The notes: generated by a model not told the origin, from the letters alone. A stretch of 64,000 bases of DNA from Bryobacteraceae bacterium (GCA_046155405.1 JBJXFL010000014.1:18119-82118), one strand, 5' to 3'; shown: positions 46,501 through 62,847, counted from the stretch's first letter. Program-made: numbers and translations.

Positions 46501-47962
46501 CGCGACGCTGGAATATCACGCGGTCGATGTGTGCGACACCGTCGGTTTCGGCGCCCTGATCGACCGCATCTACGAAAAACACGGAGCGATCGACGCGGTC
46601 ATCCATGGTGCGGGCGTGATTGAAGATAAGCTGCTGGAAGATAAGACGGCGGAATCCTTCCGGCGCGTGTTGGAGCCGAAGGTGCTGGGCGCCGAGGTTT
46701 TGGCGCGGAAACTGCGGCCGGAATCGCTTCAGTTGCTGGTGTTTTTCTCTTCCGTTTCGGCGCGCTACGGCAACCGCGGACAGAGCGACTATTCGGCGGC
46801 GAACGAAGTACTGAACAAGCTGGCGCACTACTTGAACGCGCATTGGCCGGGCCGCGTGGTTTCCTTCGACTGGGGCCCGTGGAAGACCGAAGGCGGGATG
46901 GTGTCGGCGCAGTTGGCGGAGCGATTCGCCAAGGCCGGCGTGGAGATGATCGATCCTCCAGGCGGGCGGCGCGCTTTCCTGCGGGAAGTGCTGCACGGAA
47001 CGAAAGAAGATTTCGAAGTGGTATTCGGCGGGCCGCTACGCTTGGAACAGCAGTCGCCGGGCACGGCCGTGAAACGCGCCGCGGCCGCTCCGCAGGTTTT
47101 GCTGGGCACGATGAACGCCGGCACGGGCAAGCTGGATTTCACCTTTGAAAGCAGCGCTAAACGGCATATATATCTGTGTGACCACGAGATCGACGGCCGC
47201 CCGGTGATGCCGATGGCGATGATGCTCGAACTGTTCGCCGAGGTGGCCGCGGTGTGCCAGCCGGGAACCAAGCTGCGAACCGTCCGGGACATGAAACTGT
47301 TCCGCGGCATCACGCTCAAGTCCCGCGAAGATTCGGTGGCGGTGCAGGTGTTGGCCGAACCGTCCGGCGGCGCGATTCGGGTGTCGGTGCGCGCCAAGGG
47401 CGGCGCGCCCATACACTATGAAGCGCTGGTGGAAACCGGCTCCGCCGCTCCGGCCGTTCGGGCGCCGAAATTGGAATTGCGCAATGCGCGGCCGCTGCCG
47501 CTGACGGTGGCGGAGGCTTACGAAGCGTGGTTGTTCCACGGACCGCTGTTCGCGGGCATTGTCGATGTCGAAGCCGTGGGCGACAATGGAATTGTGGGAA
47601 CTCTGCGTCCGTCGCTGCCGGCTACATTGTTCGCCGATCCGCGGCAGGGCGAGTGGGCCGCCGACCCGGTGGTGATCGATAGCGGCTTGCAGATGATTAT
47701 TCTCTGGGCGCGCACGATCATCGACCAGACGCCGCTCCCCTCGCGGCTCGGCTGCTATCACGCGTACGCTCCGCTGCACGCCGCGGCCATCCGTTGCGAG
47801 ATCGAAGTGGATCATCGCCCGGGCAGCCCGACGCTGCGCTGCCAACTGCGCTTCTTCAATGAACGCGGCGACTTTTTAGGCTGGATGGAAGATATGGAAG
47901 TAACAGCAAGCAAGGCCCTGAACCGGACGGCGAAAATCAGCCATGCTGGAACCGGACAATAA
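39659..47962 (+). CDS. Iterative type-I PKS / PUFA-synthase-like megasynthase: NMO-like, ER, KS, AT, ACP, KR, DH
   Basis: 2767 aa. The motifs were read directly from the translation; see the domain features below. The stop overlaps the next start (TAATG at 47960-47964). Confidence 0.95.
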   Translation: MNFGIVVLSPAGFPNPRLAAAAAVAGFNGGISLECLNAAQAEGLEKQLLASGHPFTLAMESLAGWQGEFAARLAGKGLERIVLTSGQASAVEIAAGKALPAIVLVEVVTADESAEAVVAGADGLIVKGNESGGRVGEETTFLLLQRIIGKVPVPVWARGGIGLHTSAACLAAGAAGVVVDWQLGLVEESNLPEAVKAKLARMDGSETSILGQECTARFRAYARPSETAFHELRKYEETQGLYSGTAPEQLAAWRGKVGERAGRGELLLVGQDGAFAPVFAENHRTVKSVCQALLRNASRQVRVAARQDAFREGGPLTESQGTRYPILQGPMTRVSDRADFALAVADGGGLPFLALALMRGPAVGKLLAETKEKLGTKPWGVGILGFVPKELRDEQLAEVKKCLPPFAVIAGGRPDMAKEFEKDGVQTYLHVPSPELLRNFLESGARRIIFEGRECGGHVGPRSSFVLWDQMVRVILAHLAGPKASKPEDYNFVFAGGIHDALSTAMTAAITAPLAERGVKTGVLLGTGYLFTHEAVTSGAISRTFQQEAVRCSQTILVESGVGHATRCANTPFGDLFNGEKRRLSKEGAPKEEIREKLEGLNLGRLRIASKGVERRKRPDGTSFYEEVNAETQRLEGMFMIGQVAALRNSVVTVADLHAEVVRGGNILRARLEELLAEARKIAGEHNGNDVAIVGLSAVFPQANDADTFWQNILHKRSAITEVPKERWDLDVYFDSDRRARDKVYSRWGGFMGDFEFDPMRFGMPPASVPSIEPMQLIMLEMVRRALADAGYDQRKFNRERTACIVGTGGGVGELGLGYGFRSMVPHYVDYAGGTLEDSRTLIEAIGGNLPEWTEDSFAGLLLNVVSGRVANRFDFGGTNYIVDAACATALAGLRSAVTELQTGSSDVAVAASADMMQSPFGYLCFSKTQALSPTGLCRTFDDKADGIVISEGFSVAILKRLEDAILDGDHVYALVKAVGASSDGKDKGLTAPRPLGQMRALERAYAKSGIDPATVGLIEAHGTGTVVGDRTETEALTAFFSRSSAPRHTIALGSVKSQIGHTKCSAGFAGLVKAAYALRHKVLPPTINVTTPNAKANWDESPLFINTEPRPWMARLDGASRSAGVSAFGFGGTNFHTVLSEYRPVDGIADDTCPLREWPAELFLMRGKTAADVTGTINLLLKEIEAGAQPALWDLAAAVYWDKGRGEGDVRLAIVAESLTDLTAKLKAARPHVEAGKAYKDPKGIYFSAEGLGKDAKVAFLFPGQGSQSPDMLRDLSVAWPAARRVFERADAALGMQLGRPLSSYIFPAPAFRDEVRKANEEAIKATNVAQPALGAADLAMFGVLEMLGITPDMAGGHSYGEFAALAAAGAMTVEELTRISELRGRVIIENASGELGTMAAVDAGEAATVEGIAGLSDVWLANLNAPKQTVIAGTAKGIDDAVAQLKSKGVAAKKIAVACAFHSKLVAGAKEPLAKGLADVAMRRPRFPVYSNTTARPHGDDVDAIRVSLAEHLVRPVRFADELAAMHDAGARIFIECGPAKVLTGLAAKTLEGRPFHAVAMDQSGRNGLVQMAHALGQLSTAGVPFYAYRLFEGRVLKSTTLARLLAESKPEPITATAWVVRAGRSFPAAEYQRISANGIVRGNVEGRASGQPKLLSAAPPAATPIEVAMNSPRMTASNGATAPGETAAVSAPVASAVVATPQPAAVAYTEPMMPLGGSVMEQVVQGHHQLMSRFLDTHRTVMMSMMRQVDSMPAASVRMTAVSQPMPAPRPQYSQPPAAAPAPAPVHAPAVPVAAPAPVTVAVVAAPVAVAAPLAAPAPSVAAPAAPARVGKAEITEKLVNLVSQRTGYPPEMLGLDQDLEADLGVDSIKRVEIFGALQNESLLPASAVEGEIESLSKLKTLQAIIDWVEAKIMELAGGAPKVAALSVPNQAPADESTAQPAPVVSAVTEITRLRVEAADAPLGEERRAPLPKFVLITDDGGGVSSAVSAKLNSLGIRNQILRGELSDPVVAHSMAVSLRETNGAVEHLIHLKSLAPGAPGEYLALSKRLESDLMPLYLLTREFASDMRKAEGGGTVLSVTRLGGIFGFGTTPGKAHPIASGSVAGFAKSVAREWPETAVRAVDFDAGTPESEIADRVVAELLTRDVYSEVGYLNGKRQRLLTKATPVGPELGPVRLTKDSIVLVTGGARGITAEITLELAEYCQPKFILLGRSPLPPEKRGDEIDNVTDDRKLKALIIDRLQTIGQRPTPAIVEGELRRIKREREILANIAAIRATGATLEYHAVDVCDTVGFGALIDRIYEKHGAIDAVIHGAGVIEDKLLEDKTAESFRRVLEPKVLGAEVLARKLRPESLQLLVFFSSVSARYGNRGQSDYSAANEVLNKLAHYLNAHWPGRVVSFDWGPWKTEGGMVSAQLAERFAKAGVEMIDPPGGRRAFLREVLHGTKEDFEVVFGGPLRLEQQSPGTAVKRAAAAPQVLLGTMNAGTGKLDFTFESSAKRHIYLCDHEIDGRPVMPMAMMLELFAEVAAVCQPGTKLRTVRDMKLFRGITLKSREDSVAVQVLAEPSGGAIRVSVRAKGGAPIHYEALVETGSAAPAVRAPKLELRNARPLPLTVAEAYEAWLFHGPLFAGIVDVEAVGDNGIVGTLRPSLPATLFADPRQGEWAADPVVIDSGLQMIILWARTIIDQTPLPSRLGCYHAYAPLHAAAIRCEIEVDHRPGSPTLRCQLRFFNERGDFLGWMEDMEVTASKALNRTAKISHAGTGQ
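40622..41668 (+). other. Domain: PfaD/FabK-type FMN enoyl reductase
   Basis: aa 322-670: YPILQGPMTRVSD..., IIFEGRECGGHVGPRSS, FVFAGGIHD...GVLLGTGYLFTHEA. Confidence 0.75.
41723..43093 (+). other. Domain: ketosynthase (Cys-His-His intact)
   Basis: aa 689-1145: DVAIVGLSAVFPQA, VDAAC(887)ATALAG, EAH(1022)GTGT, IGH(1062)TKCSAG. Confidence 0.9.
43430..44338 (+). other. Domain: acyltransferase (malonyl-type)
   Basis: aa 1258-1560: FLFPGQGSQ, GGHS(1360)YGE, VACAFHS. Confidence 0.85.
45164..45403 (+). other. Domain: single integrated ACP
   Basis: aa 1836-1915: LGLDQDLEADLGVDS(1871)IKRVEI, preceded by a ~180-aa Ala/Pro/Val-rich linker (aa 1655-1835). Confidence 0.85.
45581..46993 (+). other. Domain: ketoreductase (structural plus catalytic subdomains)
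   Basis: aa ~1975-2445: VLVTGGARGITAEI, HGAGV, SSVSARYGNRGQSDY(2378)SAAN. Confidence 0.8.
47096..47908 (+). other. Domain: PKS-type (double hot-dog) dehydratase
   Basis: aa ~2480-2750: LCDH(2509)EIDGRPVMPMAMMLEL (HxxxGxxxxP) and DPVVIDSGLQ (DxxxQ). Confidence 0.8.
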
Positions 47963-50900
47963 TGAGCGCGAAAGAATCGAGACCCCCTTCCGGGCATTCC
48001 ATTCACGGGGATGTCGCCATTGTCGGCCTGGCTTGTACCTACCCCGGAGCGCGTAACGCCGGCCAGTTCTGGCGGAACATCGTCAACAAACTGAGCGCGA
48101 TCGCCGACGTTCATCCGGACCGCTGGGATCCGGCCGTTTTTTACGATCCCGATCCCGCCAAGGAAGACAAGATCTACTGCAAGCAGGGCGGCTACCTGCC
48201 CAATTCGTTCACGTTCAATCCGGCGAAAGCGGGCGTGCCGCCGTCGGCCATCGAGGGCGCCGAGCCGGACCATTACCTGATGCTCCGGACGATGTACGAA
48301 GCGTTGGACGACGCGGGTTATCTGAAGAAAACCTTCGACCGGGACCGGGTGAGCGTCATGATGGGCAAGGGCAACTACCTGGCGCCCGGCTTGACATGGA
48401 TCATGCACCGGACGGTGGTTTCCGAGATGGTGATGCGTATCGTGGAGTCGTTGCGCCCGGACTTCACCGGAGACGAACTTACGAAGATCAGGCAGTCGAT
48501 TCAGCGGAAGCTGCCGAAGCTCAATACGGAGAACGCGGCGGGGCTGATCCCGAACATCAGCACCGGGCGGGTGGCCAACCGGCTGGACTTCATGGGCGCG
48601 AACTACACGATCGACGCGGCCTGCGCGTCTTCGTTATTAGCGACGGAGAACGCCCTGCACAGCCTGCTGATCGGCAAGGACGATATGGTGCTGGCCGGCG
48701 GGTCGCACCTGTTCGCGCATATTCCGTTTCTGAGCGTTTTCGACAAGACGCGGGCGATGTCGGCGACGTCCACCATTCGCCCCTACGATGCGAACGCCGA
48801 CGGGACGATGTCCGGCGAGGGCATTGGCGTGATGGTGCTGAAACGGCTGGCCGACGCCGAGCGCGACGGCGACCGGATCTATGCGGTGATCAAGGGCGCC
48901 GGATCGGCCTCCGACGGCAAGGCAAAAGGCGTGATGGCGCCGCGCGTGGAGGGAGAAGAACTGGCCCTGCGCCGGGCGTTGTCGATGGCCGGCGTGGCGC
49001 CGGAAACGGTGGAACTGATAGAAGGCCACGGCACGGGGACGCCCGTTGGCGATGCGACCGAGATTGAAGCGCTGCACCGGGCGTACGGCGAAAACAGCGA
49101 GGGCCGGCGCACCATTGCGTTGGGCAGCGTGAAATCGAATATCGGTCATGCGATGCCCGCGGCCGGAGCGGCCGGGCTGATTAAGACGGCGCTTGCGCTT
49201 TATCACAAAGTCCTGCCGCCGACGTTGAATGTAGTTGAACCCAACGCCCTGCTGCAGCGGCCGGAATCGCGTTTTTATTTGAATACGGAAGCGCGGCCCT
49301 GGATCCACCGCAAGGATGGCGCGCCGCGCCGGGCGGGCGTGAACGCTTTCGGATTCGGCGGCATCAACGCCCACGTGGTATTGGAGGAGTACCGGCCCGC
49401 GGCGGAGACCGGCCAGCCGACGCTGCTTCGCGAATGGGACCAGGAACTGTTCGTATTTGAAGGGGCGACGCGGCCGGAGTTGATGGCTTCGCTCGACCGG
49501 GTGCGCGGCTATGTGCTATCCGTCGAAGGCGTATCGACCGCCGATCTGGCCTTTACCCTGAACACGGCGCTGACCGGACAGGCGGAACGGCTGGCGATCA
49601 TAGCGTCTAATTTCGAAGAACTCGCCCAACGCATCGACCGCGCCAAACGCAAGCTGGAAGACCCGGATTGTTCACAGATCCGCGAACGCCAGGGTATCTA
49701 CTATTTCGAGAGCCCGGAACTGCACAACGGCAAAGTCGCCTTCCTGTTCCCGGGCGAAGGGGCGCAGTATGTCAACATGCTGTCGGACCTTTGCATCCAC
49801 TTTCCGGAGGTCCGGAACTGTTTCGATACGGCCGATACGGCGAAGAAGAACGGCGCTCCGGTATCGAGCGTCGTGTTCCCGGCGCCGTCGCTGACGCCGG
49901 AGGACGAAGCCGCGGCCGAAGCCGAACTTTTCTCCATTGAACGCGCCACGGAGACGGTTCTGACGGCCGACGGAGCGATGTTCCGGCTGATGGAAAAGCT
50001 GGGGCTGCGGGCGCACATGATGAGCGGCCATTCGGCCGGCGAGTGGATCGCGATGGCGGCGTCCGGGATGCTGGATGTCGACACGTTCATCGGCTCGATG
50101 GAACGGCTGGAAACGATGTACCGCGATGTCGCGGCGGACTCCGAGATTCCGCGGATGGCGATGCTGGCCGTTGGCGCGGGAAAAGAACGCGTGGCCGAAT
50201 TGGCTTCGCAGGCCGGTGTCAAGATCGACCTGGCGAACGACAACTGCCCCCATCAGACCGTGATTGTGGTGGAGCCGGCGCATACCGACCGCGTGGTGGA
50301 GCACTTCCTGACGAGCGGCGTTTTCATCGAAAAACTGCCCTATGACCGCGGTTACCACACGCCCGCGTTCACCTACATTTGCGATCCGCTACGCAAGTTT
50401 TTCGCCTCCTTGGATTTGAACGCACCGAAGGTGCCGGTGTATTCCTGCACCACCGCCGAACTGATTCCGGAGGATCGCGAGGGCATTCTGGACGTGGTCG
50501 CCAATACCTTCGCCAAGCCGTTGATCTTCCAGGACACAATCCGGAAGATGTACGACGACGGCGCGCGGATCTTCGTTGAACTTGGGCCGCGCGGTAACCT
50601 GACGGCTTTCGCCGACGATATTTTGCGCGGGCGGATGCACCTGTCCGTACCGATGGACCAGTTCCGCCGGCCGGGTTTGCTGGGATTATGCCACGGGCTG
50701 GGCCTGCTGGCCGCGGCCCATGTGCCGTTGGCGCTCGTGGGGTTGTACGAACGGCGCCAGCCGCGCCGCCTCACCCTGGATGCGAAGGCCGATACGGTGC
50801 TGCCGGAAGAGCGGCAGCCGGGCAGTATTCAAGTTTCGCTCTGCTATTCGGTGCTCGAATCTCCGCCGCCGGAGATGATGCGGTCAATGGCCGCCATCGC

Positions 50901-52923
50901 GTTGCAAAAGGAGCCCGCCGTCCGTCCGCCGGCCACCGCGCCGCCGCCGGCGGAGGTGTTGGAAACACCGGCTCCGGTGCCGATCACGCCGCTCGCGGAG
51001 GTCGCGCAGAGCTCGTTCGAAACGCCGTCGTACTACTATGAGCCACAGCAGGCGGAATATGTAGACGCCTCCGCCGGCCTGCCGGTGGAAGCCGGCACGC
51101 TGCTGATGCACGAACATTTCTCGTTGATGGACGATTTTCTGCGCACGCAGGAGACCGTGATGTCCGGCTTTCTGGCCGGTGGCATGTCGTATTCCGGCGG
51201 TCCGTACCTGGAGCCGCGCGAGGAAGAAATGCCCGCGCATGCCGCCGAATGGGAGACGGTCCCGGACGTGAGGGAGGAGCCGATGCTGGCGCATATCGAA
51301 ATCGCCGAGCATACGCCGCTCACGTCGATGTCCATGTTTGTAACGCTGGATCTGGCGCATCACAAGTATCTGGAAGATCACTGCCTGTACTTTGAAGGTT
51401 CCGACGCCGACCAGCAAGGCAATCGCATTCTGGCGATGCCGCTCACGGGAAGCCTGGAACTGATGGCCGAGGCCGCGCTGCATCTGGCGCCGGGTGAGCG
51501 CGTGATCGCCATCCGGAAGGCGCAGGCGCTGCGGCCGGTGAATGTGGAGCGCGGCGCGGCTCCGGCCCGCATTCGTTTGAACATGCGGCGGCAGGGCGCC
51601 GATATCCGGATCGGACTGCACTCGGAGCGGGGCGACCTGTTGACCGAAGCGGTGGTGGTGGTGGCCCCGGACTTTGAACCGGCGCCGGCTCCGGAACCGC
51701 TTACGCTGGAAAATCCGAAGCGTCCGACGTGCCCGCTCAATGAAGTCTATTCGACGCATCGTATGTTCCATGGCCCGCGTTTTCAGGGCATTCAGGATAT
51801 AGAGAAGGTCGGCGGCAACGGGTTGATCGCGCGGCTGCGGATTCTACCGAACACCGATTGTTTCGGCTCCACGGCGGCACCCGGTCTGATTTTGGATCCG
51901 TTTCTGTTTGACGCCGCCGGACAGTTGGTGGGCTACTGGCCGATCGACAATCTACCCGATGGATTCGTGCTATTGCCTATCCGTTTGGGCGACGTGGCCA
52001 TATATGGACCGTCACCCGCGCCCGGCACCGAGCTTGAGTGCCGTTTGTGGGTACGCAATGTTTCCCATCGTCAGTTGTCCGCCGATTTCGACGTATTGCT
52101 GCCGGATGGAACGGTTTGGCTGCGCGTGAAGGGTTGGACCGATTGGCGCTTCCACTGGGAGCGGCGCTTCTATGACTTCTGGCGCTTTCCGAATGAGTAT
52201 TTCAATGGGCGTCAGATTGAATCGCCGGCGCTCACGGCGCGCGGGATACATTGCCGCATTTTGGATCCGATGACGGAAGTGGAGAAAACCGGGCTTTCGG
52301 AGACGGTATGGACGCGGATGATTCTGGAGCGCGGGGAACTCGCCGAGTACCTTGGCATTCAGGACGACGCGCGGCGGCTGCCGTTTCTTTTCCGGCGCGC
52401 GATCGCCAAGGATGCCACGCGCGGCTGGCTGGCCGAGAACGGCCGCAGTCGGGTTTACCCGGCGGATGTCGTTTTGTACGATTTGCCGGGTGAATCGTAT
52501 GACGCCCGGGGCGCCTGGCGCGGCGTGGGCGAGACGCTGCATACGGCCGCCGCCTATGACAGCCTATTCGCGGTCGGCGCCGTTGGCCCGACGCGGCTGA
52601 CTATCGTACTGCGTGAAGTTACGGATGGGGAGCAACCCCTGGAAATGGCGTTCGCACCGGAGGAGCGGGAGTGGATTCAACGGCTCGCCAAACCCGATGA
52701 ATGGACCGCGCGGGCGACCGCCGCGAAAATGGCGGTGGCGAAGTGGCTGCGGCCGGATCTGGCGGACGATGAGTTTTGGACGACCCTGTTGATTCCGCAA
52801 TTGAACGAGAGCACCGGAGTTCTGGCGGTGGCCGATCCGGGATCGGCGGTAAACGCGGAAGACACGGTTTCAGTGATTACGCTGCGCGATGGCAAATTTG
52901 TCATGGCGATCGCGACAAACTAA
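47962..52923 (+). CDS. Second megasynthase: KS, AT, DH, C-terminal PPTase-like (apparently degenerate) domain
   Basis: 1653 aa; see the domain features below. It has no ACP or KR of its own. Confidence 0.95.
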   Translation: MSAKESRPPSGHSIHGDVAIVGLACTYPGARNAGQFWRNIVNKLSAIADVHPDRWDPAVFYDPDPAKEDKIYCKQGGYLPNSFTFNPAKAGVPPSAIEGAEPDHYLMLRTMYEALDDAGYLKKTFDRDRVSVMMGKGNYLAPGLTWIMHRTVVSEMVMRIVESLRPDFTGDELTKIRQSIQRKLPKLNTENAAGLIPNISTGRVANRLDFMGANYTIDAACASSLLATENALHSLLIGKDDMVLAGGSHLFAHIPFLSVFDKTRAMSATSTIRPYDANADGTMSGEGIGVMVLKRLADAERDGDRIYAVIKGAGSASDGKAKGVMAPRVEGEELALRRALSMAGVAPETVELIEGHGTGTPVGDATEIEALHRAYGENSEGRRTIALGSVKSNIGHAMPAAGAAGLIKTALALYHKVLPPTLNVVEPNALLQRPESRFYLNTEARPWIHRKDGAPRRAGVNAFGFGGINAHVVLEEYRPAAETGQPTLLREWDQELFVFEGATRPELMASLDRVRGYVLSVEGVSTADLAFTLNTALTGQAERLAIIASNFEELAQRIDRAKRKLEDPDCSQIRERQGIYYFESPELHNGKVAFLFPGEGAQYVNMLSDLCIHFPEVRNCFDTADTAKKNGAPVSSVVFPAPSLTPEDEAAAEAELFSIERATETVLTADGAMFRLMEKLGLRAHMMSGHSAGEWIAMAASGMLDVDTFIGSMERLETMYRDVAADSEIPRMAMLAVGAGKERVAELASQAGVKIDLANDNCPHQTVIVVEPAHTDRVVEHFLTSGVFIEKLPYDRGYHTPAFTYICDPLRKFFASLDLNAPKVPVYSCTTAELIPEDREGILDVVANTFAKPLIFQDTIRKMYDDGARIFVELGPRGNLTAFADDILRGRMHLSVPMDQFRRPGLLGLCHGLGLLAAAHVPLALVGLYERRQPRRLTLDAKADTVLPEERQPGSIQVSLCYSVLESPPPEMMRSMAAIALQKEPAVRPPATAPPPAEVLETPAPVPITPLAEVAQSSFETPSYYYEPQQAEYVDASAGLPVEAGTLLMHEHFSLMDDFLRTQETVMSGFLAGGMSYSGGPYLEPREEEMPAHAAEWETVPDVREEPMLAHIEIAEHTPLTSMSMFVTLDLAHHKYLEDHCLYFEGSDADQQGNRILAMPLTGSLELMAEAALHLAPGERVIAIRKAQALRPVNVERGAAPARIRLNMRRQGADIRIGLHSERGDLLTEAVVVVAPDFEPAPAPEPLTLENPKRPTCPLNEVYSTHRMFHGPRFQGIQDIEKVGGNGLIARLRILPNTDCFGSTAAPGLILDPFLFDAAGQLVGYWPIDNLPDGFVLLPIRLGDVAIYGPSPAPGTELECRLWVRNVSHRQLSADFDVLLPDGTVWLRVKGWTDWRFHWERRFYDFWRFPNEYFNGRQIESPALTARGIHCRILDPMTEVEKTGLSETVWTRMILERGELAEYLGIQDDARRLPFLFRRAIAKDATRGWLAENGRSRVYPADVVLYDLPGESYDARGAWRGVGETLHTAAAYDSLFAVGAVGPTRLTIVLREVTDGEQPLEMAFAPEEREWIQRLAKPDEWTARATAAKMAVAKWLRPDLADDEFWTTLLIPQLNESTGVLAVADPGSAVNAEDTVSVITLRDGKFVMAIATN
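48007..49389 (+). other. Domain: ketosynthase (Cys-His-His intact, so not a chain-length factor)
   Basis: aa 16-476: DVAIVGLACTYPGA, IDAAC(221)ASSL, EGHGTGT, IGHAMPAAG. Confidence 0.9.
49735..50661 (+). other. Domain: acyltransferase-like (GHSAGE type)
   Basis: aa 592-900: FLFPGEGAQ, SGHS(691)AGEW, YDRGYHTPAF in place of the xAFHS motif of synthase 1. Confidence 0.8.
51283..52161 (+). other. Domain: PKS-type dehydratase with an insertion in the His motif
   Basis: aa ~1108-1400: LEDH(1140)CLYFEGSDADQQGNRILAMP (an 11-residue insertion between His and Pro) and LDPFLFDAAGQ. Confidence 0.7.
52279..52920 (+). other. Domain: 4'-phosphopantetheinyl-transferase-like fold, catalytic residues not conserved
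   Basis: aa ~1440-1653 align segment by segment to the stand-alone PPTase at 57761: LHTAAAYDSLFAVGAV..RLTIVLRE vs LSHTEGIAVLLVAV..VGVDVERP, and EWTARATAAKMAVAKWL vs RIWTVKESLVKAVG. The Asp of the DxE motif and the Glu of the KE motif are replaced. Confidence 0.5.
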
Positions 52924-52963: not shown

Positions 52964-53263
52964 GTGGAAATTCTTACACGAGATTCGGTTCGAGAACAAT
53001 TGATAGGGATGTTGAAGGACGCCCGGGAAGACTGGGACAGCTCGATCGTGGTGACGGACGCAACCGGCCTGTTTCAGGAGCTGGGTTTTGAGTCCATCGA
53101 CGCGGTGGGCCTCAGTTCCACCCTGGAAATGAACTACGACCAGACGCTCCCCTTCCCGGAGTTTATGAACAAGGCGAAGACGCAGGGATGGAAAGATATC
53201 ACGGTCGGTTCGCTCGTCGATTTCCTGATGGAGAACCTGAAAAACTCACCGGAGAGGAAGTAG
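52964..53263 (+). CDS. Stand-alone acyl carrier protein
   Basis: 99 aa, GTG start after AAGGACAAGG. Contains LGFES(I)DAVGL phosphopantetheine-site-like motif in a four-helix-sized protein. Confidence 0.78.
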   Translation: MEILTRDSVREQLIGMLKDAREDWDSSIVVTDATGLFQELGFESIDAVGLSSTLEMNYDQTLPFPEFMNKAKTQGWKDITVGSLVDFLMENLKNSPERK

Positions 53264-53266
53264 CCG

Positions 53267-54856
53267 ATGGGCGCTCCCACAATTATCTTTGGCCTCGACG
53301 GCGCCACTTATACGGTCCTTGACGATCTGATGCAACGGGGTGTAATGCCCTATCTGCAACAATTCATCAGTGAAGGCGTGAAGGCCACGATGATGTCCGT
53401 AACGCCGCCGTTGACGCCCCCGGCCTGGTCCACGCTGGTGACCGGCCGCACGCCCGGCCATCACGGCATTACCGGATTCTTCCAGTACGACTCGCCGGAA
53501 TCGTCGTCCTTGCAATTGGTATCGAACCGGCAGATGACCGCCGAGACCATCTGGTCCATGGTGAACCGCCAGGGCAAACGGTCGGGTTGTTTGAATTTCG
53601 TCGCGCATCAGCCGGGACCGAAGATCGACGGCTGGGTGATCCCCGGCTGGATTTCGTGGCGCTGGGTAAAACAGCTCAGCCATCCGTCCACCGTAGTGGA
53701 GCGGCTGAAGAAAGAGCTCCCGGGCTTCGACTTGAAGGCGTTGGCGATGGATTTCGAGGAAGAGCGGAAGGCCGTTGTAGGCTCGCCCATCGACGACTAC
53801 AAAGGGTGGATTGGGCTGCACATCGACCGGGAACGCCAGTGGTTCAACGTTATCAAGTACCTGATGGAACACGACACCGTGGACCTGCTTGGAGTGGTGT
53901 TTGACGGCGTGGATAAGATGCAGCACCTCTTGTGGCCATATCTGGATCCGGGGCTGGCCCCGGCGGAACCGTCGGCGGATTTCCTGCGCATCCGGGAGAT
54001 GTGCTGGGACTACTATCGCAACATCGACGACATTCTGCGGGAAACGTCCGAGCTCTACGGTAAGGACGCCAATATTCTCATCTGCTCCGACCATGGCTTC
54101 GCGGGCAGTTGGGAAGTGGTGTTTATCAACACCTGGCTGGAACAAAAGGGCTATCTCACGTGGAAGGAGGATACGGAATCCGTCACCAATATTCAGGAGT
54201 TGGAGCCGGCCTTCTACCGTATGAATACGTTCGACCACGATCGGACCACCGCCTACGCCCTCACCACGTCAAGCAACGGCATTTTCATCAACGTCAAAGG
54301 CAAAAAGGGCGATTTCGGCATCGATCCGGCGGAGTACGATTCGTTCCTGGCCAAGCTGACGGAGGAACTTCTGAACGACTTCCGCGATCCGGCGACCGGC
54401 GAGCCCATCATCACCGCCGCCGTCCCCTCCAGCGTGGCTTTTGCCGGACCGCATGAGGCGCTGGCGCCCGACATCACCGTCTCGCTCCGCGACCACGGTT
54501 TCTTCTCGGTTCGCAAGGGCGACTCGATCATCGCCAAACGCCCGCAGTATCTCGGCACGCATCATCCGGAGGGCATTCTGATTTGCCGTGGACCCGGGAT
54601 CCGCAAGAACCACCACATCGACCCCGTCCATCTTCTGGACGTGGCGCCGACCGCTTTGTATGCGATGGGTCTCGACATTCCCGCCGACCTTCAGGGGCGT
54701 GTTCTCGAAGAGGCTTTCACTTCCGATTTCCTCGCCGATCGCGAACTGCGCCGCGGCGCGTCTACAAAGGCGGTCGAAAAATCGGACTCGGAGGCGCTCG
54801 AAGCCGACGACGAAGACATTTTGGAAAAGATGAAAGCCCTCGGCTACCTTGAGTAG
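53267..54856 (+). CDS. Alkaline-phosphatase-family enzyme (type I phosphodiesterase / nucleotide pyrophosphatase-like)
   Basis: IIFGLDGATYTVLDDL metal-ligand region, VTPPLTPPAWSTLVTG nucleophile-Thr region, ICSDHGF, GTHHPEG. It starts 3 nt after the ACP stop. Confidence 0.83.
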   Translation: MGAPTIIFGLDGATYTVLDDLMQRGVMPYLQQFISEGVKATMMSVTPPLTPPAWSTLVTGRTPGHHGITGFFQYDSPESSSLQLVSNRQMTAETIWSMVNRQGKRSGCLNFVAHQPGPKIDGWVIPGWISWRWVKQLSHPSTVVERLKKELPGFDLKALAMDFEEERKAVVGSPIDDYKGWIGLHIDRERQWFNVIKYLMEHDTVDLLGVVFDGVDKMQHLLWPYLDPGLAPAEPSADFLRIREMCWDYYRNIDDILRETSELYGKDANILICSDHGFAGSWEVVFINTWLEQKGYLTWKEDTESVTNIQELEPAFYRMNTFDHDRTTAYALTTSSNGIFINVKGKKGDFGIDPAEYDSFLAKLTEELLNDFRDPATGEPIITAAVPSSVAFAGPHEALAPDITVSLRDHGFFSVRKGDSIIAKRPQYLGTHHPEGILICRGPGIRKNHHIDPVHLLDVAPTALYAMGLDIPADLQGRVLEEAFTSDFLADRELRRGASTKAVEKSDSEALEADDEDILEKMKALGYLE

Positions 54857-54871
54857 ATAGGAGTAGAAAGC

Positions 54872-55744
54872 ATGCCCAAGGCACCCGTTAACGGTATTGA
54901 TATCCACTACGTTCGCCGTGGTGAAGGCAGGGATGTCATCCTGCTGCACGGAGTCACCTCGTCGCTGGCGATGTGGTACAACGGCATTTACCCGAAGCTG
55001 TCCGAGAACTACCGCGTCACCGCCTATGACCTGCGCGGTCACGGACTGAGCGGGCTCACCCCTACCGGCTATACCTCTGCCGACATGGCCGAGGATCTGC
55101 TCGGGCTTTTGGATAGTCTCAAGATCGAGAAGGCCACCCTGATCGGCCACAGTTTCGGTGGAGCGATCGGCCTCCACATGGCATTGCTGCATCCGGACCG
55201 GGTGCACGGGGTGATCATGCTCGATAGCGGCCTCGCCTGCCTACGCTATCTTCGGATTATCGCCGATTGGCAGGGTTGGAAGGGACGTCCCGAGGAGTTC
55301 CAGAAGAAGGGGCTGAGTTTGGAGCAGTTCCTGGAGCTGGATTCCAAACAGGACGTGACCGCGGTGATTCGCCATGGACTGAATATGCCCCGGGTGGGCG
55401 GATTCAGAAAGGGCCAATCCGGAATGACGCCGCGGCTGCAGCGCTTACTCGATGAAACCAAACTCGGCTATGAGTTCCGGGACGTCGCCGGCATGACCGA
55501 GGAACGCTTGCGCACCGTCCTAACGCCGGTACTAGCCCTTTACGGGGAAACGTCGCCGTATCAAAAGATGGCCAAACACCTGAATGGACTCCTTCCCAAC
55601 TGCCGGCATGAGGTTCTGCCCGGCACCGGCCACTTCTCCGCGATCCATCGGCCGGAACTGGTGGCGCCCGTGATTCAGGAGTTCGTCGCGGATCCGATCG
55701 ACTACGTGAAGAATGCGCCGGATTCCGTGGCGGTCGCACCCTAG
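54872..55744 (+). CDS. Alpha/beta-fold hydrolase (candidate thioesterase or acyl hydrolase)
   Basis: VILLHGVTSS oxyanion region, nucleophile elbow GHSFGG, and a C-terminal GTGHFSAIHRPE catalytic-His region. Confidence 0.85.
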   Translation: MPKAPVNGIDIHYVRRGEGRDVILLHGVTSSLAMWYNGIYPKLSENYRVTAYDLRGHGLSGLTPTGYTSADMAEDLLGLLDSLKIEKATLIGHSFGGAIGLHMALLHPDRVHGVIMLDSGLACLRYLRIIADWQGWKGRPEEFQKKGLSLEQFLELDSKQDVTAVIRHGLNMPRVGGFRKGQSGMTPRLQRLLDETKLGYEFRDVAGMTEERLRTVLTPVLALYGETSPYQKMAKHLNGLLPNCRHEVLPGTGHFSAIHRPELVAPVIQEFVADPIDYVKNAPDSVAVAP

Positions 55745-55886
55745 TTAAGACTAGTACGTATGGCTCGATTGGCCCACGAGAATTGAGTTATCTCTGTGCT
55801 ACACTCATCGCACAACATGAATTTGCCCTTTAAGGGCGGTAATCAAGAATCTGGTCCAATCACCTGGTCCATGTAGGAGGAGGAGT

Positions 55887-57728
55887 ATGGTTATATCGAA
55901 AGCTAAATTTCTGGGAGCGGTCCTATTGGCCGTTACCGCGTTGAGTGGTCAGGAGAAAATTCCGCCGCCGCGAACCCCTGGGAACACCTTTGTAACGAAC
56001 AATTTTTCTGGTGTTGTGAAGGCGAAGGCGTCTCCGGACGAGTGCTACCTGTCGCTCGGCAACAATATCCAATACGATTTCATCGATCAATTGAACCCCG
56101 GCTTGCCCTGCGGTCCCGGCAAGCGGCCGAAAGTTAACCAAGGGTACGTGTGGGGCACCGCCGTTGTCGGAACCACTATCTATTTCGGCACGACGCCGAA
56201 TGGCCAGTGCATCACCCAGGGCGGCGTTGTCAGCGATCCCGCGAACTTGACTCCGCTCGAAACGGCGGCGTATGCCTGCGAATTCGCGGAAAGTCCCTAT
56301 TACCCGACCCCGATTACGGCCGCGCAGATCGGCGACTTCCGGCCGCCTCGTATTTACAAGTTTGAAACCACGACGGGCGCCATCACCGATATCACTCCCA
56401 AGGCCCCGGTTGGCGTCTGCCTGACGACGAATCCTCTGTGCGTCGAGCCGTTAATTCTCAACACGCGCGGCATTCGCGCCGTTGCCGCTAATCCGGCTAA
56501 TCCCGACATCGTGATGTTCGCCGGGCCGGCGCTCACCTCCACCGGCGGAATTAACTTCTTTGCGTACCGGATCAGCACGAACAGTTGGATCGCCAAGGGC
56601 GTTACAACCCTGTATGACAATATCCGCCGCTTTACGCTGCTTAACTCCGGCGGCGGGAGCGTTCTTTACACCGCCGTGGGCAACACGGCCAGCAATACCG
56701 CTAACCCCAACGCCGGTTCGGCGTTGCGCTACGCCGGTTCGTTCACAACAATCCCCCCCCCTCCGCCGCCGACGTCGGGATCCAATATTCCGGTTTGCGC
56801 GGCTTGCTTCACCTTTCAAGCGGTCGGCAATTTAGACGGGGAAGGCGCCTATCTCACCAGCCACGCCGGCCGTTTGTACGTATCCACCTGGCCGAAGCCC
56901 GGTCTCGCCGGCCTGCACATGAGCCCGGCCATTCCTCCCACCGGTTTAACCACCGCCAACGCGACGCAGTGGACGAAGGTGTGGAGTGTGGCTAATTATG
57001 AGCCCGATACCACCATCCAGACTTCCTATGCGAACGGCGCGCTTATGTCGTTCGGGGGATATCTGTACTGGGGTACGATGAATGTGCCGTGGGCCTCCAC
57101 TGGGGTCATCACGCAACAGTATGGCGTCCCTACGACACAGCCTGAAATTCAGACACTCATTGTGAATAGTTTCCGGACGATCAGCATCTGGCGCGGCAAG
57201 GACTTTGACACCGTCCCGGCGATCGACCTCCTCTACGGCGAAACCACCCTGCCGAAATATGTTCCAGCCAATGGCGGACCTGGAAATCCCGCCGCCTGGG
57301 TCCAGACTCCCACCGGGAAGACGCCATTGTACGGCAAATCCGGCTTCGACAACCCGTATAACAACTACACCTGGAACATGAACGTGTTCAACAATAAGTT
57401 GTATGTCGGCACAATGGACTGGAGTTATCTGGCCGTAACGGCCTATGGGGCGATTATCGGTAACGCCCTGAGTCAGATTCCGACTCAGAGCTACGGCGCC
57501 GACCTATGGGTATTCAACAATACAACTTCGGCCGCGGTGGCGGAGAACACGAACGGCGTTGGCAACTACACCAACTACGGCGTTCGCAATATTGTGCCGG
57601 TCGGAACTAAACTCTACCTCGGCACGGCAAACCCGATGAACCTGTTGACTAACTATACCGACTCGGTACCCGACGGCGGCTGGGAACTCCTCCAGATGAC
57701 CCCTCGCGGCGGGACCGTGGTTCGTTAG
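55887..57728 (+). CDS. Secreted repeat protein, possibly a beta-propeller
   Basis: AGGAGGAGGAG RBS and a signal peptide. A recurring (K/R/T)(L/I)Y(V/L/F/W)(G/S)T motif appears five times: TIYFGT, RLYVST, YLYWGT, KLYVGT, KLYLGT. Confidence 0.7.
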   Translation: MVISKAKFLGAVLLAVTALSGQEKIPPPRTPGNTFVTNNFSGVVKAKASPDECYLSLGNNIQYDFIDQLNPGLPCGPGKRPKVNQGYVWGTAVVGTTIYFGTTPNGQCITQGGVVSDPANLTPLETAAYACEFAESPYYPTPITAAQIGDFRPPRIYKFETTTGAITDITPKAPVGVCLTTNPLCVEPLILNTRGIRAVAANPANPDIVMFAGPALTSTGGINFFAYRISTNSWIAKGVTTLYDNIRRFTLLNSGGGSVLYTAVGNTASNTANPNAGSALRYAGSFTTIPPPPPPTSGSNIPVCAACFTFQAVGNLDGEGAYLTSHAGRLYVSTWPKPGLAGLHMSPAIPPTGLTTANATQWTKVWSVANYEPDTTIQTSYANGALMSFGGYLYWGTMNVPWASTGVITQQYGVPTTQPEIQTLIVNSFRTISIWRGKDFDTVPAIDLLYGETTLPKYVPANGGPGNPAAWVQTPTGKTPLYGKSGFDNPYNNYTWNMNVFNNKLYVGTMDWSYLAVTAYGAIIGNALSQIPTQSYGADLWVFNNTTSAAVAENTNGVGNYTNYGVRNIVPVGTKLYLGTANPMNLLTNYTDSVPDGGWELLQMTPRGGTVVR

Positions 57729-57760: not shown

Positions 57761-58516
57761 TTGATTGCATCCTTACAGCAAGGGCAAGCGCACCTGTGGC
57801 GTCTGCCCTTGGCTGAATTTGAAGAAGGCCGGCTTCTGGAAGCCGGCCTTCCGCTTTTGAGCGGTGAGGAGCGGGAGCGCTATGCGCGAGCGCTACATCC
57901 GCGGTTTCGCGCACTGCTTCTGGCCGGCCGGTTGCTGATGCGGTGCGCGCTGTCGTCGTACGGTTCTCGCGGGCCGGCGGAATGGCGGATCGAAGTGGGC
58001 GAGAACGGTAAGCCATTCGTTTCCAACAGCCCCCAGGGCTTGACCGTGAATCTCTCGCATACGGAGGGGATCGCGGTCCTGCTGGTCGCCGTCGCCGCTT
58101 CCGTGGGGGTGGATGTGGAACGGCCCTGGCGCATATTGGACCCCCTCGCCACCGGCCGGCCGGTGTTCTCCGACCGGGAGATGACGATGCTCCGTCAGAT
58201 GACCGATGAACGGGAGAGGCGTGAGCGCTTTTACCGGATCTGGACCGTTAAGGAATCCCTGGTGAAAGCCGTCGGCGCCGGGATAACCGGCGATCTTCGC
58301 CATGTCACCTTCGATGTTTCAAACCCTTCGCCCCGGCTGCTGGAAACCGTACCGGCGTTGGCCGCTCCCGCCGACGCCTTTTTCTTTGCAAAGACGCTGC
58401 CGGAAGGTTTTCTTGTGTCCGGGACCATCTTCCCGTTTCAACCGGTTTCGGCTATTCTGGACATTGACGCTATCGCCCCGATACGCGGAATGATACGCGA
58501 AGCGATTGGTAGTTGA
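57761..58516 (+). CDS. Sfp-type 4'-phosphopantetheinyl transferase
   Basis: NLSHTEGIAVLLVA, VGVDVERP, FYRIWTVKESLVKAVG. A TTG start is inferred because there is no nearby ATG. Confidence 0.82.
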   Translation: MIASLQQGQAHLWRLPLAEFEEGRLLEAGLPLLSGEERERYARALHPRFRALLLAGRLLMRCALSSYGSRGPAEWRIEVGENGKPFVSNSPQGLTVNLSHTEGIAVLLVAVAASVGVDVERPWRILDPLATGRPVFSDREMTMLRQMTDERERRERFYRIWTVKESLVKAVGAGITGDLRHVTFDVSNPSPRLLETVPALAAPADAFFFAKTLPEGFLVSGTIFPFQPVSAILDIDAIAPIRGMIREAIGS

Positions 58517-58563
58517 ATTGCAACCTCTTCTCACGTAAAGCGGGTTTTTAGGAGTTGGCGATA

Positions 58564-59655: not shown

Positions 59656-59657
59656 TC

Positions 59658-62589: not shown

Positions 62590-62847
62590 AATGAACACTC
62601 CTCCGTAATTGTCTACAAAGCGAACAAACATACAACTAACAAACGGCATACCGTATATCTAAGCCTCAGCCCGTAGTGCTAATGTAATGTCTCCGATTCT
62701 CTCACGCTTTTGGGGTGTGATCAAGACCTATCGACGGCGGCAAAGACGGGTGGTTTTGCTACATCTAGTACCATTGGGAAGAATACCCCCGCCTCCGTTA
62801 GGGAGTAGGAAAATCGGATGGAAAGACCCATGCGTTAGAGTAAGAGA

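What the first reader, a model, noticed from the sequence alone, without database searches (positions are those of the whole stretch)
52279..52920. C-terminal PPTase-like domain on synthase 2 appears catalytically dead, while a bona fide Sfp-type PPTase sits 5 kb downstream
Seen: the last ~210 aa of the 1653-aa synthase align block by block with the operon's own PPTase (57761-58516):
- MILERGELAEYLGIQDDARRLPFLFRRAIAKDA vs LLSGEERERYARALHPRFRALLLAGRLLMRCA
- LHTAAAYDSLFAVGAV..RLTIVLRE vs LSHTEGIAVLLVAV..VGVDVERP
- FAPEEREWI vs FSDREMTML
- EWTARATAAKMAVAKWL vs RIWTVKESLVKAVG

The Mg-binding Asp of (V/I)D(V/I)E is Val/Leu, and the Glu of the W..KE(A/S) motif is Met.

Established: enediyne PKSE carries an active C-terminal PPTase domain, and these Asp/Glu residues are needed for catalysis in Sfp/AcpS enzymes.

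Inference: this looks like a PKSE-like ancestor whose integrated PPTase decayed into a pseudo-enzyme, possibly an ACP- or CoA-binding scaffold. The phosphopantetheinylation function would then have been taken over by the discrete PPTase.
Basis: partly seen in the sequence, partly recalled or inferred. Interest (0 to 1): 0.65.

Follow-up and report, generated by a model that had tools for sequence, protein, structure and literature searches.

The report
Dead PPTase domain on lipid synthase
The tail of a large fatty-acid/polyketide-type synthase has the fold of the enzyme that normally switches carrier proteins on, but every catalytic and cofactor-binding residue is gone; evolution still conserves it, it carries a new invariant loop, and an ordinary stand-alone activating enzyme is encoded in the same operon.

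Summary
The last ~256 aa of the 1653-aa synthase (window 52153-52920) are a two-lobed Sfp-type PPTase fold: AlphaFold pLDDT 84, and the top Foldseek hits are all Sfp-type PPTases. The domain belongs to a large family (964 representatives) of PPTase domains fused to the C-terminus of KS-AT-(ACP)-DH subunits of PUFA-synthase-like "secondary lipid" synthases.

- **Canonical members.** Most keep the motifs G(R/K)P, S..H, G.D.E and W..KE...K.
- **The window.** It has ESY, A..Y, T.V.R and T..KM...K, so all Mg2+, CoA and catalytic-base residues are lost.
- **One loss event.** A single clade of at least 28 non-redundant sequences shares the loss. It includes the window and Acidobacteriota MAGs.
- **A gain as well.** The same clade acquired an invariant loop, (V/I)ADPxxA(V/I)NAED.
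- **Still under selection.** dN/dS is about 0.10-0.17, so this is a conserved pseudo-enzyme, not debris.
- **Discrete PPTases.** Operon-encoded ones occur in 6 of 17 degenerate loci and 0 of 14 canonical loci.

"PKSE-like ancestor" is not: the ancestor is a pfaBC-PPTase subunit, as in Type M clusters. "CoA-binding scaffold" is unlikely. What the domain does now is unknown. This is a new variant of a known kind, of moderate interest.

The parts
39659..47962 (+). Synthase 1 (2767 aa): ER(NMO)-KS-AT-ACP-KR-DH, a fused pfaD-pfaA-like subunit. It has a single ACP with Ser at aa 1871 (LGVDSIKR).
   Evidence: Pfam and NCBIfam PfaA hits; ACP motif scan; KS Cys and His residues present.
47962..52923 (+). 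Synthase 2 (1653 aa): KS-AT-linker-DH-pseudoPPTase, a pfaBC-like subunit. KS Cys (DAACASS) and AT Ser (GHSAGE) are intact. It has no internal ACP; that ACP is deleted relative to most relatives.
   Evidence: Pfam; motif scan; ACP deletion seen in the alignment with relatives.
52153..52920 (+). Pseudo-PPTase domain (aa 1398-1653): an Sfp-type two-lobe fold. It is preceded by the conserved DH/PPT junction GWTDWRF (52132-52152).
   Evidence: AlphaFold plus Foldseek; profile searches.
52492..52500 (+). ESY in place of the G(R/K)P CoA-binding motif (Pro is 95 % conserved in canonical members).
52546..52557 (+). AAAY in place of S(I/L)(A/S)H, the P1b' motif hShxH (His is 99 % conserved in canonical members).
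   Evidence: motif definition from PMC3098273.
52600..52614 (+). TIVLR in place of G(I/V)D(I/V/L)E; both Mg2+ ligands are lost (Asp->Val, Glu->Arg).
52717..52743 (+). TAAKMAVAK in place of WxAKEAxxK. The catalytic-base and Mg2+ Glu is Met and the Trp is Thr; both Lys residues are retained.
52828..52863 (+). VADPGSAVNAED: a clade-specific loop. A, D, P, A, N, E and D are invariant in 28 of 28 non-redundant degenerate-clade members, and each of these residues occurs in under 20 % of the 86 canonical ones.
52964..53263 (+). Stand-alone ACP (99 aa, GFESID), conserved directly downstream of synthase 2 in nearly all related loci with enough downstream sequence.
   Evidence: Pfam PP-binding E 3.9e-5; synteny.
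53267..54856 (+). Type I phosphodiesterase / nucleotide pyrophosphatase family protein (529 aa), a conserved operon member.
   Evidence: PF01663 E 7.7e-42; PDB hits to NPP and phosphonoacetate hydrolase; synteny.
54872..55744 (+). Alpha/beta hydrolase (290 aa), a conserved operon member and possibly the thioesterase.
   Evidence: PF00561 E 1.2e-30, weak Thioesterase hit; synteny.
55887..57728 (+). 613-aa protein of unknown family, a conserved operon member.
   Evidence: No Pfam or NCBIfam hit and no meaningful PDB hit; synteny.
57761..58516 (+). Discrete Sfp/HetI-type PPTase (251 aa, TTG start) with all canonical motifs. It is the presumed activator of the synthase 1 ACP and the stand-alone ACP.
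   Evidence: PF01648 E 1.7e-13; best NCBIfam match HetI at 1.4e-25, below that model's cut-off; motif alignment.
58555..61313 (+). Two PAF-acetylhydrolase-like / PETase-like serine hydrolases (366 and 551 aa) at the end of the operon.
   Evidence: also present in L002, L012 and L015.

Best explanation
The C-terminal 256 aa of synthase 2 are a pseudo-PPTase. The domain descends from the active, integrated Sfp-type PPTase that most members of this PUFA-synthase-like family carry after the DH of the KS-AT-(ACP)-DH subunit. It keeps the fold but has lost the whole Mg2+/CoA/catalytic-base apparatus, so it can no longer transfer phosphopantetheine. This much is shown by sequence and by comparison with relatives; it has not been tested biochemically.

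By inference, the two carrier proteins of the system (the ACP of synthase 1 and the stand-alone ACP) are primed in trans by a discrete HetI/Sfp-type PPTase, which in this genome is the operon gene at 57761-58516.

The dead domain is kept under strong purifying selection for a non-PPTase role. The most likely role is structural or docking: it packs against the DH through the conserved GWxDWRF...FYDFWRFP junction and presents the clade-specific ADPxxAxNAED loop as an interaction surface. That last step is inference only.
For: **Fold**
- Two AlphaFold models, the second with all five predictions at pLDDT 81-84.
- The Foldseek top hits are exclusively Sfp-type PPTases: AASDHPPT, PcpS, Sfp, PptT, PptAb.

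**Descent from an active domain**
- 964 relatives in the profile search.
- 86 non-redundant canonical members keep G(R/K)P, S..H, G.D.E and W..KE..K at 95-100 %.
- The four canonical-motif members scanned hit PF01648 at about 1e-14 to 1e-17.
- hhalign of degenerate against canonical gives E 3e-54.
- The same operon (S1-S2-ACP-phosphodiesterase-hydrolase) carries either type of domain.
- A KS+AT tree places all degenerate ADP-motif sequences in one clade nested among canonical ones.

**Loss of function**
- Ten family-invariant positions are lost together: G90, P125, H144, G159, D161, E163, W198, E202, G209, G211.

**Retention under selection**
- The domain is full length in all 28 clade members.
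- dN/dS is 0.10 (L014/L015, dS 0.75), 0.17 and 0.15, within or near the low end of the 0.09-0.38 range of canonical pairs.
- Seven positions became invariant.

**Priming in trans**
- The operon PPTase is canonical.
- Discrete PPTases in cis occur in 6 of 17 degenerate loci and 0 of 14 canonical loci with at least 5 kb downstream. Fisher p = 0.021.
Against: - There is no biochemical test.
- 11 of 17 degenerate loci show no PPTase within 5-10 kb downstream, so the in-operon PPTase is not an obligatory partner.
- The association test ignores phylogeny. All six positive loci lie in one clade, so they may reflect few independent events.
- The new loop contains three invariant acidic residues and an Asn. 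It could form a new metal or ligand site rather than a passive surface.
- At matched KS divergence the domain changes faster than canonical PPT domains (46 % against 65 % identity at KS 70-80 %).
- The window's closest full-length relative, L010, has lost the loop, and the sister lineages L031 and L046 are truncated. Constraint is therefore not uniform.
Confidence: 0.68

Rival explanations
1. Neofunctionalised enzyme or ligand-binding module. The PPTase fold has been re-used for a new chemistry or a new ligand, with the invariant D237/N243/E245/D246 loop (ADPxxAxNAED) forming a new metal or substrate site. It might, for example, act on the stand-alone ACP or its acyl-phosphopantetheine together with the adjacent phosphodiesterase or hydrolases.
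For: - The loop is invariant in 28 of 28 sequences that are otherwise only 32-45 % identical.
- dN/dS is 0.10-0.17.
- Loss of the old site together with gain of a new acidic motif is the classic signature of repurposing.
- Residues shared with active members (E71, K95, R99, P112, D114, E180, R196, K201) remain invariant.
Against: - No known catalytic motif matches the loop, and there are no Pfam, NCBIfam or PDB sequence hits.
- L010, the closest full-length relative, with the same operon and a discrete PPTase, has replaced the loop without a frameshift.
- The phosphodiesterase, hydrolase and ACP genes are equally conserved next to canonical PPTase domains, so they do not depend on the new loop.
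Confidence: 0.18
2. Still an active PPTase with an unconventional or relocated active site, with the new acidic loop replacing the lost Asp and Glu metal ligands.
For: - The fold is intact.
- K201 and K206 of the W..KE...K helix are retained in the window.
- New invariant acidic residues exist in the C-terminal lobe.
- 11 of 17 degenerate loci have no PPTase gene nearby.
Against: - The metal ligands are not the only loss. The CoA-contacting GKP and S..H motifs of the other lobe, and the helix-capping glycines, are gone too.
- Pfam ACPS scores 13.8 bits against 52-62 bits for canonical relatives.
- Discrete PPTases appear in cis only where the domain is degenerate.
Confidence: 0.07
3. Neutral relic. 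The domain is functionless debris that has not yet been deleted.
For: - Amino-acid divergence is faster than in canonical domains at equal KS divergence.
- The sister lineages L031-L033 and L046 have truncated versions, and L010 lost the clade motif.
Against: - dN/dS is 0.10-0.17 with unsaturated dS.
- There are no frameshifts, stops or truncations in 28 non-redundant clade members, which include Acidobacteriota MAGs and contigs carrying Planctomycetota-type marker genes.
- Seven positions are newly invariant.
Confidence: 0.05

Closest known systems
Integrated-type PPTase domain at the C-terminus of bacterial type I PKS / Pfa-like secondary lipid synthases. Examples from the literature, not tested here: SAV_7361 of Streptomyces avermitilis; SACE_2343 of Saccharopolyspora erythraea; the pfaBC-PPTase subunit of the Renibacterium salmoninarum cluster (Shulse & Allen Type M).
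   Same: - Same position: after the DH of a KS-AT-(ACP)-DH subunit that follows a fused ER-KS-AT-ACP-KR-DH subunit.
- Same fold.
- Unambiguous profile homology to canonical members of the family recovered here (E 3e-54).
- Same operon core in metagenomic relatives that keep the hShxH-type P1b' motif.
   Different: - All catalytic and CoA motifs are lost and a new invariant ADPxxAxNAED loop has been gained.
- Synthase 2 has also lost its internal ACP.
- A discrete PPTase is present in the operon.
- I could not fetch SAV_7361 or the Renibacterium protein, so the link to those named proteins rests on the published domain architectures (PMC6042109, PMC3098273, bioRxiv 10.1101/2025.10.24.682833), not on an alignment.
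Enediyne PKSE (SgcE, CalE8, DynE8) C-terminal PPTase domain
   Same: An iterative type I synthase related to PUFA synthases, with a PPTase domain fused after the DH; self-phosphopantetheinylating (own knowledge).
   Different: - PKSE is one polypeptide, KS-AT-ACP-KR-DH-PPT. Here KR, ER and the ACP are on a separate subunit, and synthase 2 has neither ACP nor KR.
- None of the five long relatives scanned has a KR.
- No PKSE-like gene set was noticed nearby: the annotated neighbours are an ACP, a phosphodiesterase, hydrolases and a PPTase.
- The PKSE PPTase is active; this one is not expected to be.
Sfp / HetI / PfaE discrete group II PPTases
   Same: - The 57761-58516 product is an ordinary member, with all motifs.
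- The pseudo-domain shares their two-lobe fold, with TM about 0.5-0.56 to AASDHPPT, PcpS, Sfp and PptT.
   Different: The pseudo-domain fails every sequence criterion of the family (see the membership test).
Inactive ('0' or pseudo) domains kept in megasynthases: KS-Q/CLF, KR0, DH0, ER0 (own knowledge)
   Same: A catalytic domain that has lost its active-site residues but is retained under selection inside a multidomain synthase, presumably for architecture or partner recognition.
   Different: No phrase for a dead PPTase domain was found in the searchable literature. Here the loss is coupled to the gain of a new invariant motif.

Membership tests
Sfp-type (group II) 4'-phosphopantetheinyl transferase, PF01648 superfamily | Pseudo-dimeric fold of two AcpS-like alpha/beta lobes | tested here: met
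   AlphaFold pLDDT 81-84, pTM 0.82-0.85. The top 25-31 Foldseek PDB hits are all Sfp-type PPTases (E 1e-6 to 1e-3, probability 1.00); single lobes match AcpS at TMt 0.7-0.8.
Sfp-type (group II) 4'-phosphopantetheinyl transferase, PF01648 superfamily | Mg2+ ligands Asp and Glu of (V/I)G(I/V)D(x)E | tested here: not met
   The window has T-I-V-L-R (52600-52614), while canonical family members have G 100 %, D 100 %, E 100 %. Glu1552 follows immediately, but most clade members have a deletion at these positions.
Sfp-type (group II) 4'-phosphopantetheinyl transferase, PF01648 superfamily | Catalytic-base and Mg2+ Glu in (W/F)xxKE(A/S)xxK | tested here: not met
   The window has T-A-A-K-M-A-V-A-K (52717-52743): Glu->Met and Trp->Thr, with both Lys kept.
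Sfp-type (group II) 4'-phosphopantetheinyl transferase, PF01648 superfamily | CoA-binding motifs G(K/R)P and (F/S)NxSH / hShxH | tested here: not met
   ESY (52492-52500) and AAAY (52546-52557) occupy these positions. Motif definitions are from PMC3098273.
Sfp-type (group II) 4'-phosphopantetheinyl transferase, PF01648 superfamily | Pfam gathering threshold for PF01648 | tested here: not met
   13.8 bits (E 0.061) against a cut-off of 25. There is no NCBIfam hit and no PDB sequence hit.
Sfp-type (group II) 4'-phosphopantetheinyl transferase, PF01648 superfamily | Apo-to-holo conversion of a carrier protein with CoA and Mg2+ | not testable with these tools
   Needs an in vitro assay.
Integrated C-terminal PPTase domain of Pfa-like (pfaDA + pfaBC-PPTase) secondary lipid synthases | Location directly after the DH at the C-terminus of a KS-AT-(ACP)-DH subunit that follows an ER-KS-AT-ACP-KR-DH subunit | tested here: met
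   Pfam architectures of the window and relatives; 106 of the 111 family domains that span most of the profile end within 20 aa of the protein C-terminus.
Integrated C-terminal PPTase domain of Pfa-like (pfaDA + pfaBC-PPTase) secondary lipid synthases | Sequence homology to canonical members over the whole domain | tested here: met
   The profile search gives canonical members at 1e-37 to 1e-40. hhalign gives probability 100 %, E 3.3e-54 over 258 columns.
Integrated C-terminal PPTase domain of Pfa-like (pfaDA + pfaBC-PPTase) secondary lipid synthases | Intact PPTase motifs (self-priming capacity) | tested here: not met
   Ten positions that are at least 95 % conserved in canonical members are lost in the window's clade.
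Enediyne PKSE | Single polypeptide KS-AT-ACP-KR-DH-PPTase | tested here: not met
   Synthase 2 has no ACP and no KR; these are on synthase 1.
Enediyne PKSE | Neighbouring enediyne cassette genes (TE E10, E3, E4, E5; from own knowledge) | tested here: inconclusive
   No specific models for these genes were run. The operon neighbours are an ACP, a phosphodiesterase, alpha/beta hydrolases, an unknown protein and a PPTase, which does not resemble the cassette.

The most novel reading that the evidence does not exclude
The pseudo-PPTase is not merely a scaffold. It may be a repurposed module whose invariant ADPxxAxNAED loop forms a new metal- or ligand-binding site. It could recognise holo- or acyl-ACP, or the phosphopantetheine arm, and hand it to the conserved neighbouring phosphodiesterase or hydrolases. 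That would make it a new, PPTase-derived function in chain handling or release in an uncharacterised family of lipid synthases.
Probability: 0.15. Interest if true: 0.75.

Novelty: new variant of a known kind. Interest (0 to 1): 0.48.

Why it matters
Integrated PPTase domains on bacterial type I synthases are described in the literature as rarely reported and poorly studied (PMC6042109). This result shows three things.

- They form a large family, with about a thousand 50 %-identity representatives.
- Within that family, a whole clade has turned the domain into a selected pseudo-enzyme. The clade includes Acidobacteriota MAGs and contigs carrying Planctomycetota-type marker genes.
- A trans-acting PPTase is encoded in cis only where the integrated domain is degenerate. 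That is a natural experiment on the replacement of an in-cis priming function.

In practice, anyone expressing these uncharacterised lipid clusters heterologously would need to co-express a PPTase for this clade, and probably not for the canonical one. Conceptually, I found no report of a dead PPTase domain, so this would add PPTase to the list of megasynthase domains known to persist as non-catalytic modules. It also points to a specific 12-residue loop for mutagenesis.

Tried and rejected
- **phmmer against PDB sequences** gave no hit, and **NCBIfam** gave no family for the domain.
- **The first AlphaFold run**, with a 4-sequence alignment, gave only one confident model of five. It was repeated with 14 sequences and all five models agreed.
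- **The word-indexed homologue search** found only 3 relatives, which wrongly suggested a tiny family. The exhaustive HMM search found 964.
- **A 225-aa ORF in L009**, at the position where L008 has its PPTase, proved to be a spurious ORF with no PPTase similarity.
- **My first iterative search for discrete PPTases** was contaminated by contig-edge fragments of synthase 2 and was redone excluding them.
- **Miyanaga et al. 2008** (ArsA/ArsD of Azotobacter) could not be read. My recollection that ArsD is KS-AT-DH-PPT is therefore not used as evidence.
- **Literature searches** for pseudo-, inactive or degenerate PPTase domains returned nothing.
- **A PDB search with the 613-aa operon protein** gave nothing meaningful.
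- **The PKSE-ancestor reading** was rejected on architecture.
- **The neutral-relic reading** was rejected on dN/dS.


Full report
**1. What is at the coordinates**

The window carries a co-directional, tightly packed operon with gaps of -1 to 142 bp:
- Synthase 1: 39659-47962, 2767 aa, ER-KS-AT-ACP-KR-DH.
- Synthase 2: 47962-52923, 1653 aa, KS-AT-linker-DH plus a 256-aa tail.
- A 99-aa ACP: 52964-53263.
- A type I phosphodiesterase / NPP family protein: 53267-54856.
- An alpha/beta hydrolase: 54872-55744.
- A 613-aa protein with no family match: 55887-57728.
- A 251-aa PPTase: 57761-58516.
- Two PAF-AH-like hydrolases: 58555-61313.

Both KS domains have the active-site Cys and His residues, and the synthase 2 AT has GHSAGE. 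The carrier proteins number two: one ACP in synthase 1 (Ser1871) and the stand-alone ACP. Synthase 2 has none.

**2. Checking the observation**

The discrete protein is an ordinary Sfp/HetI-type PPTase. It scores PF01648 at 1.7e-13, and its best NCBIfam match is HetI at 1.4e-25, though at 90 bits that is far below the model's 370-bit cut-off. It has the motifs GKP, NLSH, GVDVE and WTVKESLVK.

Direct methods fail on the synthase tail:
- BLASTP against the operon PPTase gives E 0.86.
- Pfam ACPS gives 13.8 bits, below the cut-off of 25.
- There is no PDB sequence hit and no NCBIfam hit.

Indirect evidence is decisive:
- A profile of the tail and its three close homologues, searched against 1.84 billion representatives, returned 964 proteins at E <= 1e-3 and 300 at E <= 1e-10. 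Nearly all have the match at the extreme C-terminus of 1100-1900-aa proteins.
- In an alignment of 111 domains that span most of the profile, the consensus carries the textbook PPTase motifs: G(R/K)P, S(I/L)(A/S)H, G(I/V)D(x)E and WxAKEAxxK.
- The four canonical-motif long members scanned hit PF01648 at 1e-14 to 1e-17.
- Their profile hits Sfp and AcpS structures at about 4e-10, and also the fungal FAS PPT domain.
- hhalign of the degenerate clade against canonical members gives probability 100 %, E 3.3e-54 over 258 columns.
- Two AlphaFold models of the window's domain have only Sfp-type PPTases among their top 25-31 Foldseek PDB matches, at E about 1e-6 and probability 1.00. These include AASDHPPT, PcpS, Sfp, PptT and PptAb. 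Single lobes match AcpS. The second model had all five predictions at pLDDT 81-84 and pTM 0.85.

Block 2 is slightly shifted.

The substitutions are real:

| Canonical motif | Window sequence | Window coordinates |
|---|---|---|
| G(R/K)P | ESY | 52492-52500 |
| S..H | AAAY | 52546-52557 |
| G.D.E | TIVLR | 52600-52614 |
| W..KE...K | TAAKMAVAK | 52717-52743 |

**3. What the family is**

The five long relatives scanned are KS-AT-(ACP)-DH-PPT, and none has a KR. Their gene neighbourhoods show the same operon core: synthase 1, synthase 2, a stand-alone ACP, usually the phosphodiesterase, the alpha/beta hydrolase, and often the unknown ~610-700-aa protein. This holds in about 60 loci from metagenomes and from Acidobacteriota MAGs (Bryobacterales/Terriglobia), whether the PPT domain is canonical or degenerate.

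[quoted passage not shown] That source likens it to the uncharacterised Renibacterium cluster (bioRxiv 10.1101/2025.10.24.682833), which Shulse & Allen list under Type M. Shulse & Allen also report that the PPTases of Types M-T have the hShxH motif seen here (PMC3098273). Integrated-type PPTases on actinomycete type I PKSs (SAV_7361, SACE_2343) are noted as rarely reported and of unknown product (PMC6042109).

It is not the PKSE architecture, which is KS-AT-ACP-KR-DH-PPT on one chain.

**4. Pattern of loss and gain**

I compared 28 non-redundant sequences of the window's clade with 86 canonical ones.
- **Lost together:** ten positions that are 95-100 % conserved in canonical domains (G90, P125, H144, G159, D161, E163, W198, E202, G209, G211).
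- **Invariant in both groups:** ten positions (E71, K95, R99, P112, D114, E180, W193, R196, K201, A203).
- **Invariant only in the degenerate clade:** nine positions became at least 96 % conserved. Seven of them lie in one loop, (V/I)ADPxxA(V/I)NAED (window 52828-52863), between the third and fourth strands of the C-terminal lobe.

The ADP motif and loss of the catalytic triad coincide in every locus where the motif occurs. Degenerate domains without the motif also exist.

A neighbour-joining tree of the KS+AT region puts all ADP-motif sequences in one clade. That clade also contains L010, and the truncated L046 and L031 are its sister lineages. The whole group is nested among canonical lineages, so the loss happened essentially once here. 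A second, independent degeneration occurs in L050/L059/L063 and L064.

Within the window's own sub-clade (WIN, L010, L012), the internal ACP of synthase 2 (LGIDSIKR in relatives) has also been deleted.

**5. Is the dead domain under selection?**

At equal KS divergence the degenerate domain is less conserved than canonical PPT domains: 46 % against 65 % identity at KS 70-80 %. Codon-level analysis nevertheless shows strong purifying selection:
- L014/L015: dN/dS 0.10 (dS 0.75).
- L015/L016: 0.17.
- L008/L019: 0.15.
- Canonical pairs: 0.09-0.38.

No member of the 28-sequence clade is truncated or frameshifted. The domain is therefore functional in some sense.

There are counter-signals. The window's closest full-length relative, L010 (KS 74 % identical), has replaced the loop with VVDQRTSGDR without a frameshift. 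L031-L033 and L046 have lost most of the C-terminal lobe.

**6. Who primes the ACPs?**

An HMM built from the discrete PPTases, and the family HMM run with filters off, found discrete PPTase genes only in WIN, L008, L010, L011, L012 and L046. All six carry a degenerate integrated domain. All six discrete proteins have the canonical motifs where sequence is available; L011 is cut by the end of the locus.

Among loci with at least 5 kb of sequence downstream of synthase 2, this is 6 of 17 degenerate against 0 of 14 canonical. Fisher two-sided p is 0.021. The test ignores shared ancestry, so it is suggestive only. Only about 10 kb on each side was visible, so PPTases elsewhere in these genomes cannot be excluded. 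11 degenerate loci have none nearby.

**7. Explanation**

Best supported (about 0.68): a pseudo-PPTase derived from the family's active integrated PPTase. It is catalytically dead as a PPTase and is retained under selection for a structural or docking role. Priming is supplied in trans, here by the operon's HetI-like enzyme.

- **Shown:** the fold, the homology, the loss of motifs, the single origin, the purifying selection, and the cis PPTases restricted to degenerate loci.
- **Inferred:** the loss of activity, the identity of the priming enzyme, and the nature of the retained role.

Rivals:
- A repurposed enzyme or ligand-binding module using the new acidic loop (0.18).
- A still-active PPTase with a relocated site (0.07). 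This is disfavoured because the CoA-binding motifs of the other lobe are lost too.
- A neutral relic (0.05). This is contradicted by dN/dS.

**8.

- Right: the dead integrated PPTase plus a bona fide discrete one, and replacement in trans as a plausible reading.
- Not right: the "PKSE-like ancestor" label. The ancestor is a pfaBC-PPTase subunit of a Pfa-like secondary lipid synthase.
- Unlikely: the "CoA-binding scaffold".
- Understated: "decayed" does not convey that the domain is conserved and has acquired a new invariant motif.

**9. Novelty and interest**

Integrated bacterial PPTase domains and dead domains in megasynthases are both known concepts. I found no report of a dead PPTase domain.

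I rate this a new variant of a known kind, with interest about 0.48. It is a clean, testable case of a pseudo-enzyme with a gained motif, in an uncharacterised but widespread lipid-synthase operon. It is not a new kind of system.

Noticed in passing
window 52964-57728; L002-L064: The operon core is conserved across about 60 loci, independent of the state of the PPT domain. It comprises synthase 1, synthase 2, a stand-alone ACP, an NPP-type phosphodiesterase (PF01663), an alpha/beta hydrolase and a ~610-700-aa protein with no Pfam, NCBIfam or PDB match. An ACP immediately followed by a phosphodiesterase is unusual for a lipid or PKS cluster. The product and the release chemistry are unknown.
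   Followed up: partly
window 47962-52923 (linker aa ~940-1240), compared with P0006, P0018, L008, L022 and others: Most relatives carry an internal ACP (LGIDSIKR) between the AT and DH of synthase 2. It is cleanly deleted in the window, L010 and L012, and it is also absent in some distant canonical lineages (P0038, P0080, L053).
   Followed up: partly
L010:10001-10786: The window's closest full-length relative (KS 74 % identical, with its own discrete PPTase) has a degenerate PPT domain but has replaced the otherwise invariant ADPxxAxNAED loop with VVDQRTSGDR. There is no frameshift.
   Followed up: yes
L050, L059, L063, L064; L031-L033, L046: The integrated PPTase has degenerated independently elsewhere. 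In L050, L059, L063 and L064 the Asp is Ala and the catalytic Glu is Gln, Val or Leu, in a distant KS clade. L031-L033 and L046, sister lineages to the window's clade, have lost most of the C-terminal lobe. Only L046 has a cis PPTase.
   Followed up: partly
window 58555-61313: Two tandem PAF-acetylhydrolase-like / PETase-like serine hydrolases close the operon. They are also present in L002, L012 and L015.
   Followed up: no
window 10623-13667 and 61756-62649; L002 and the P0006 contig: Taxonomic hints point in different directions. The window has a TonB-dependent receptor with a CarboxypepD_reg N-domain and a PEP-CTERM protein, and the relatives in the genome collection are all Acidobacteriota MAGs. 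Two metagenomic relatives, however, sit next to PSCyt/PSD1 genes, which I know as typical of Planctomycetota (own knowledge, not tested here). The window's organism was not identified.
   Followed up: no
window 37320-39209 (- strand): A sulfatase-family protein and a TauE/SafE sulfite exporter are divergently placed just upstream of synthase 1. A sulfatase-like gene also flanks the P0006 locus.
   Followed up: no
window 13669-16530: A 953-aa ORF directly after the TonB-dependent receptor has no Pfam hit at E <= 1e-5.
   Followed up: no
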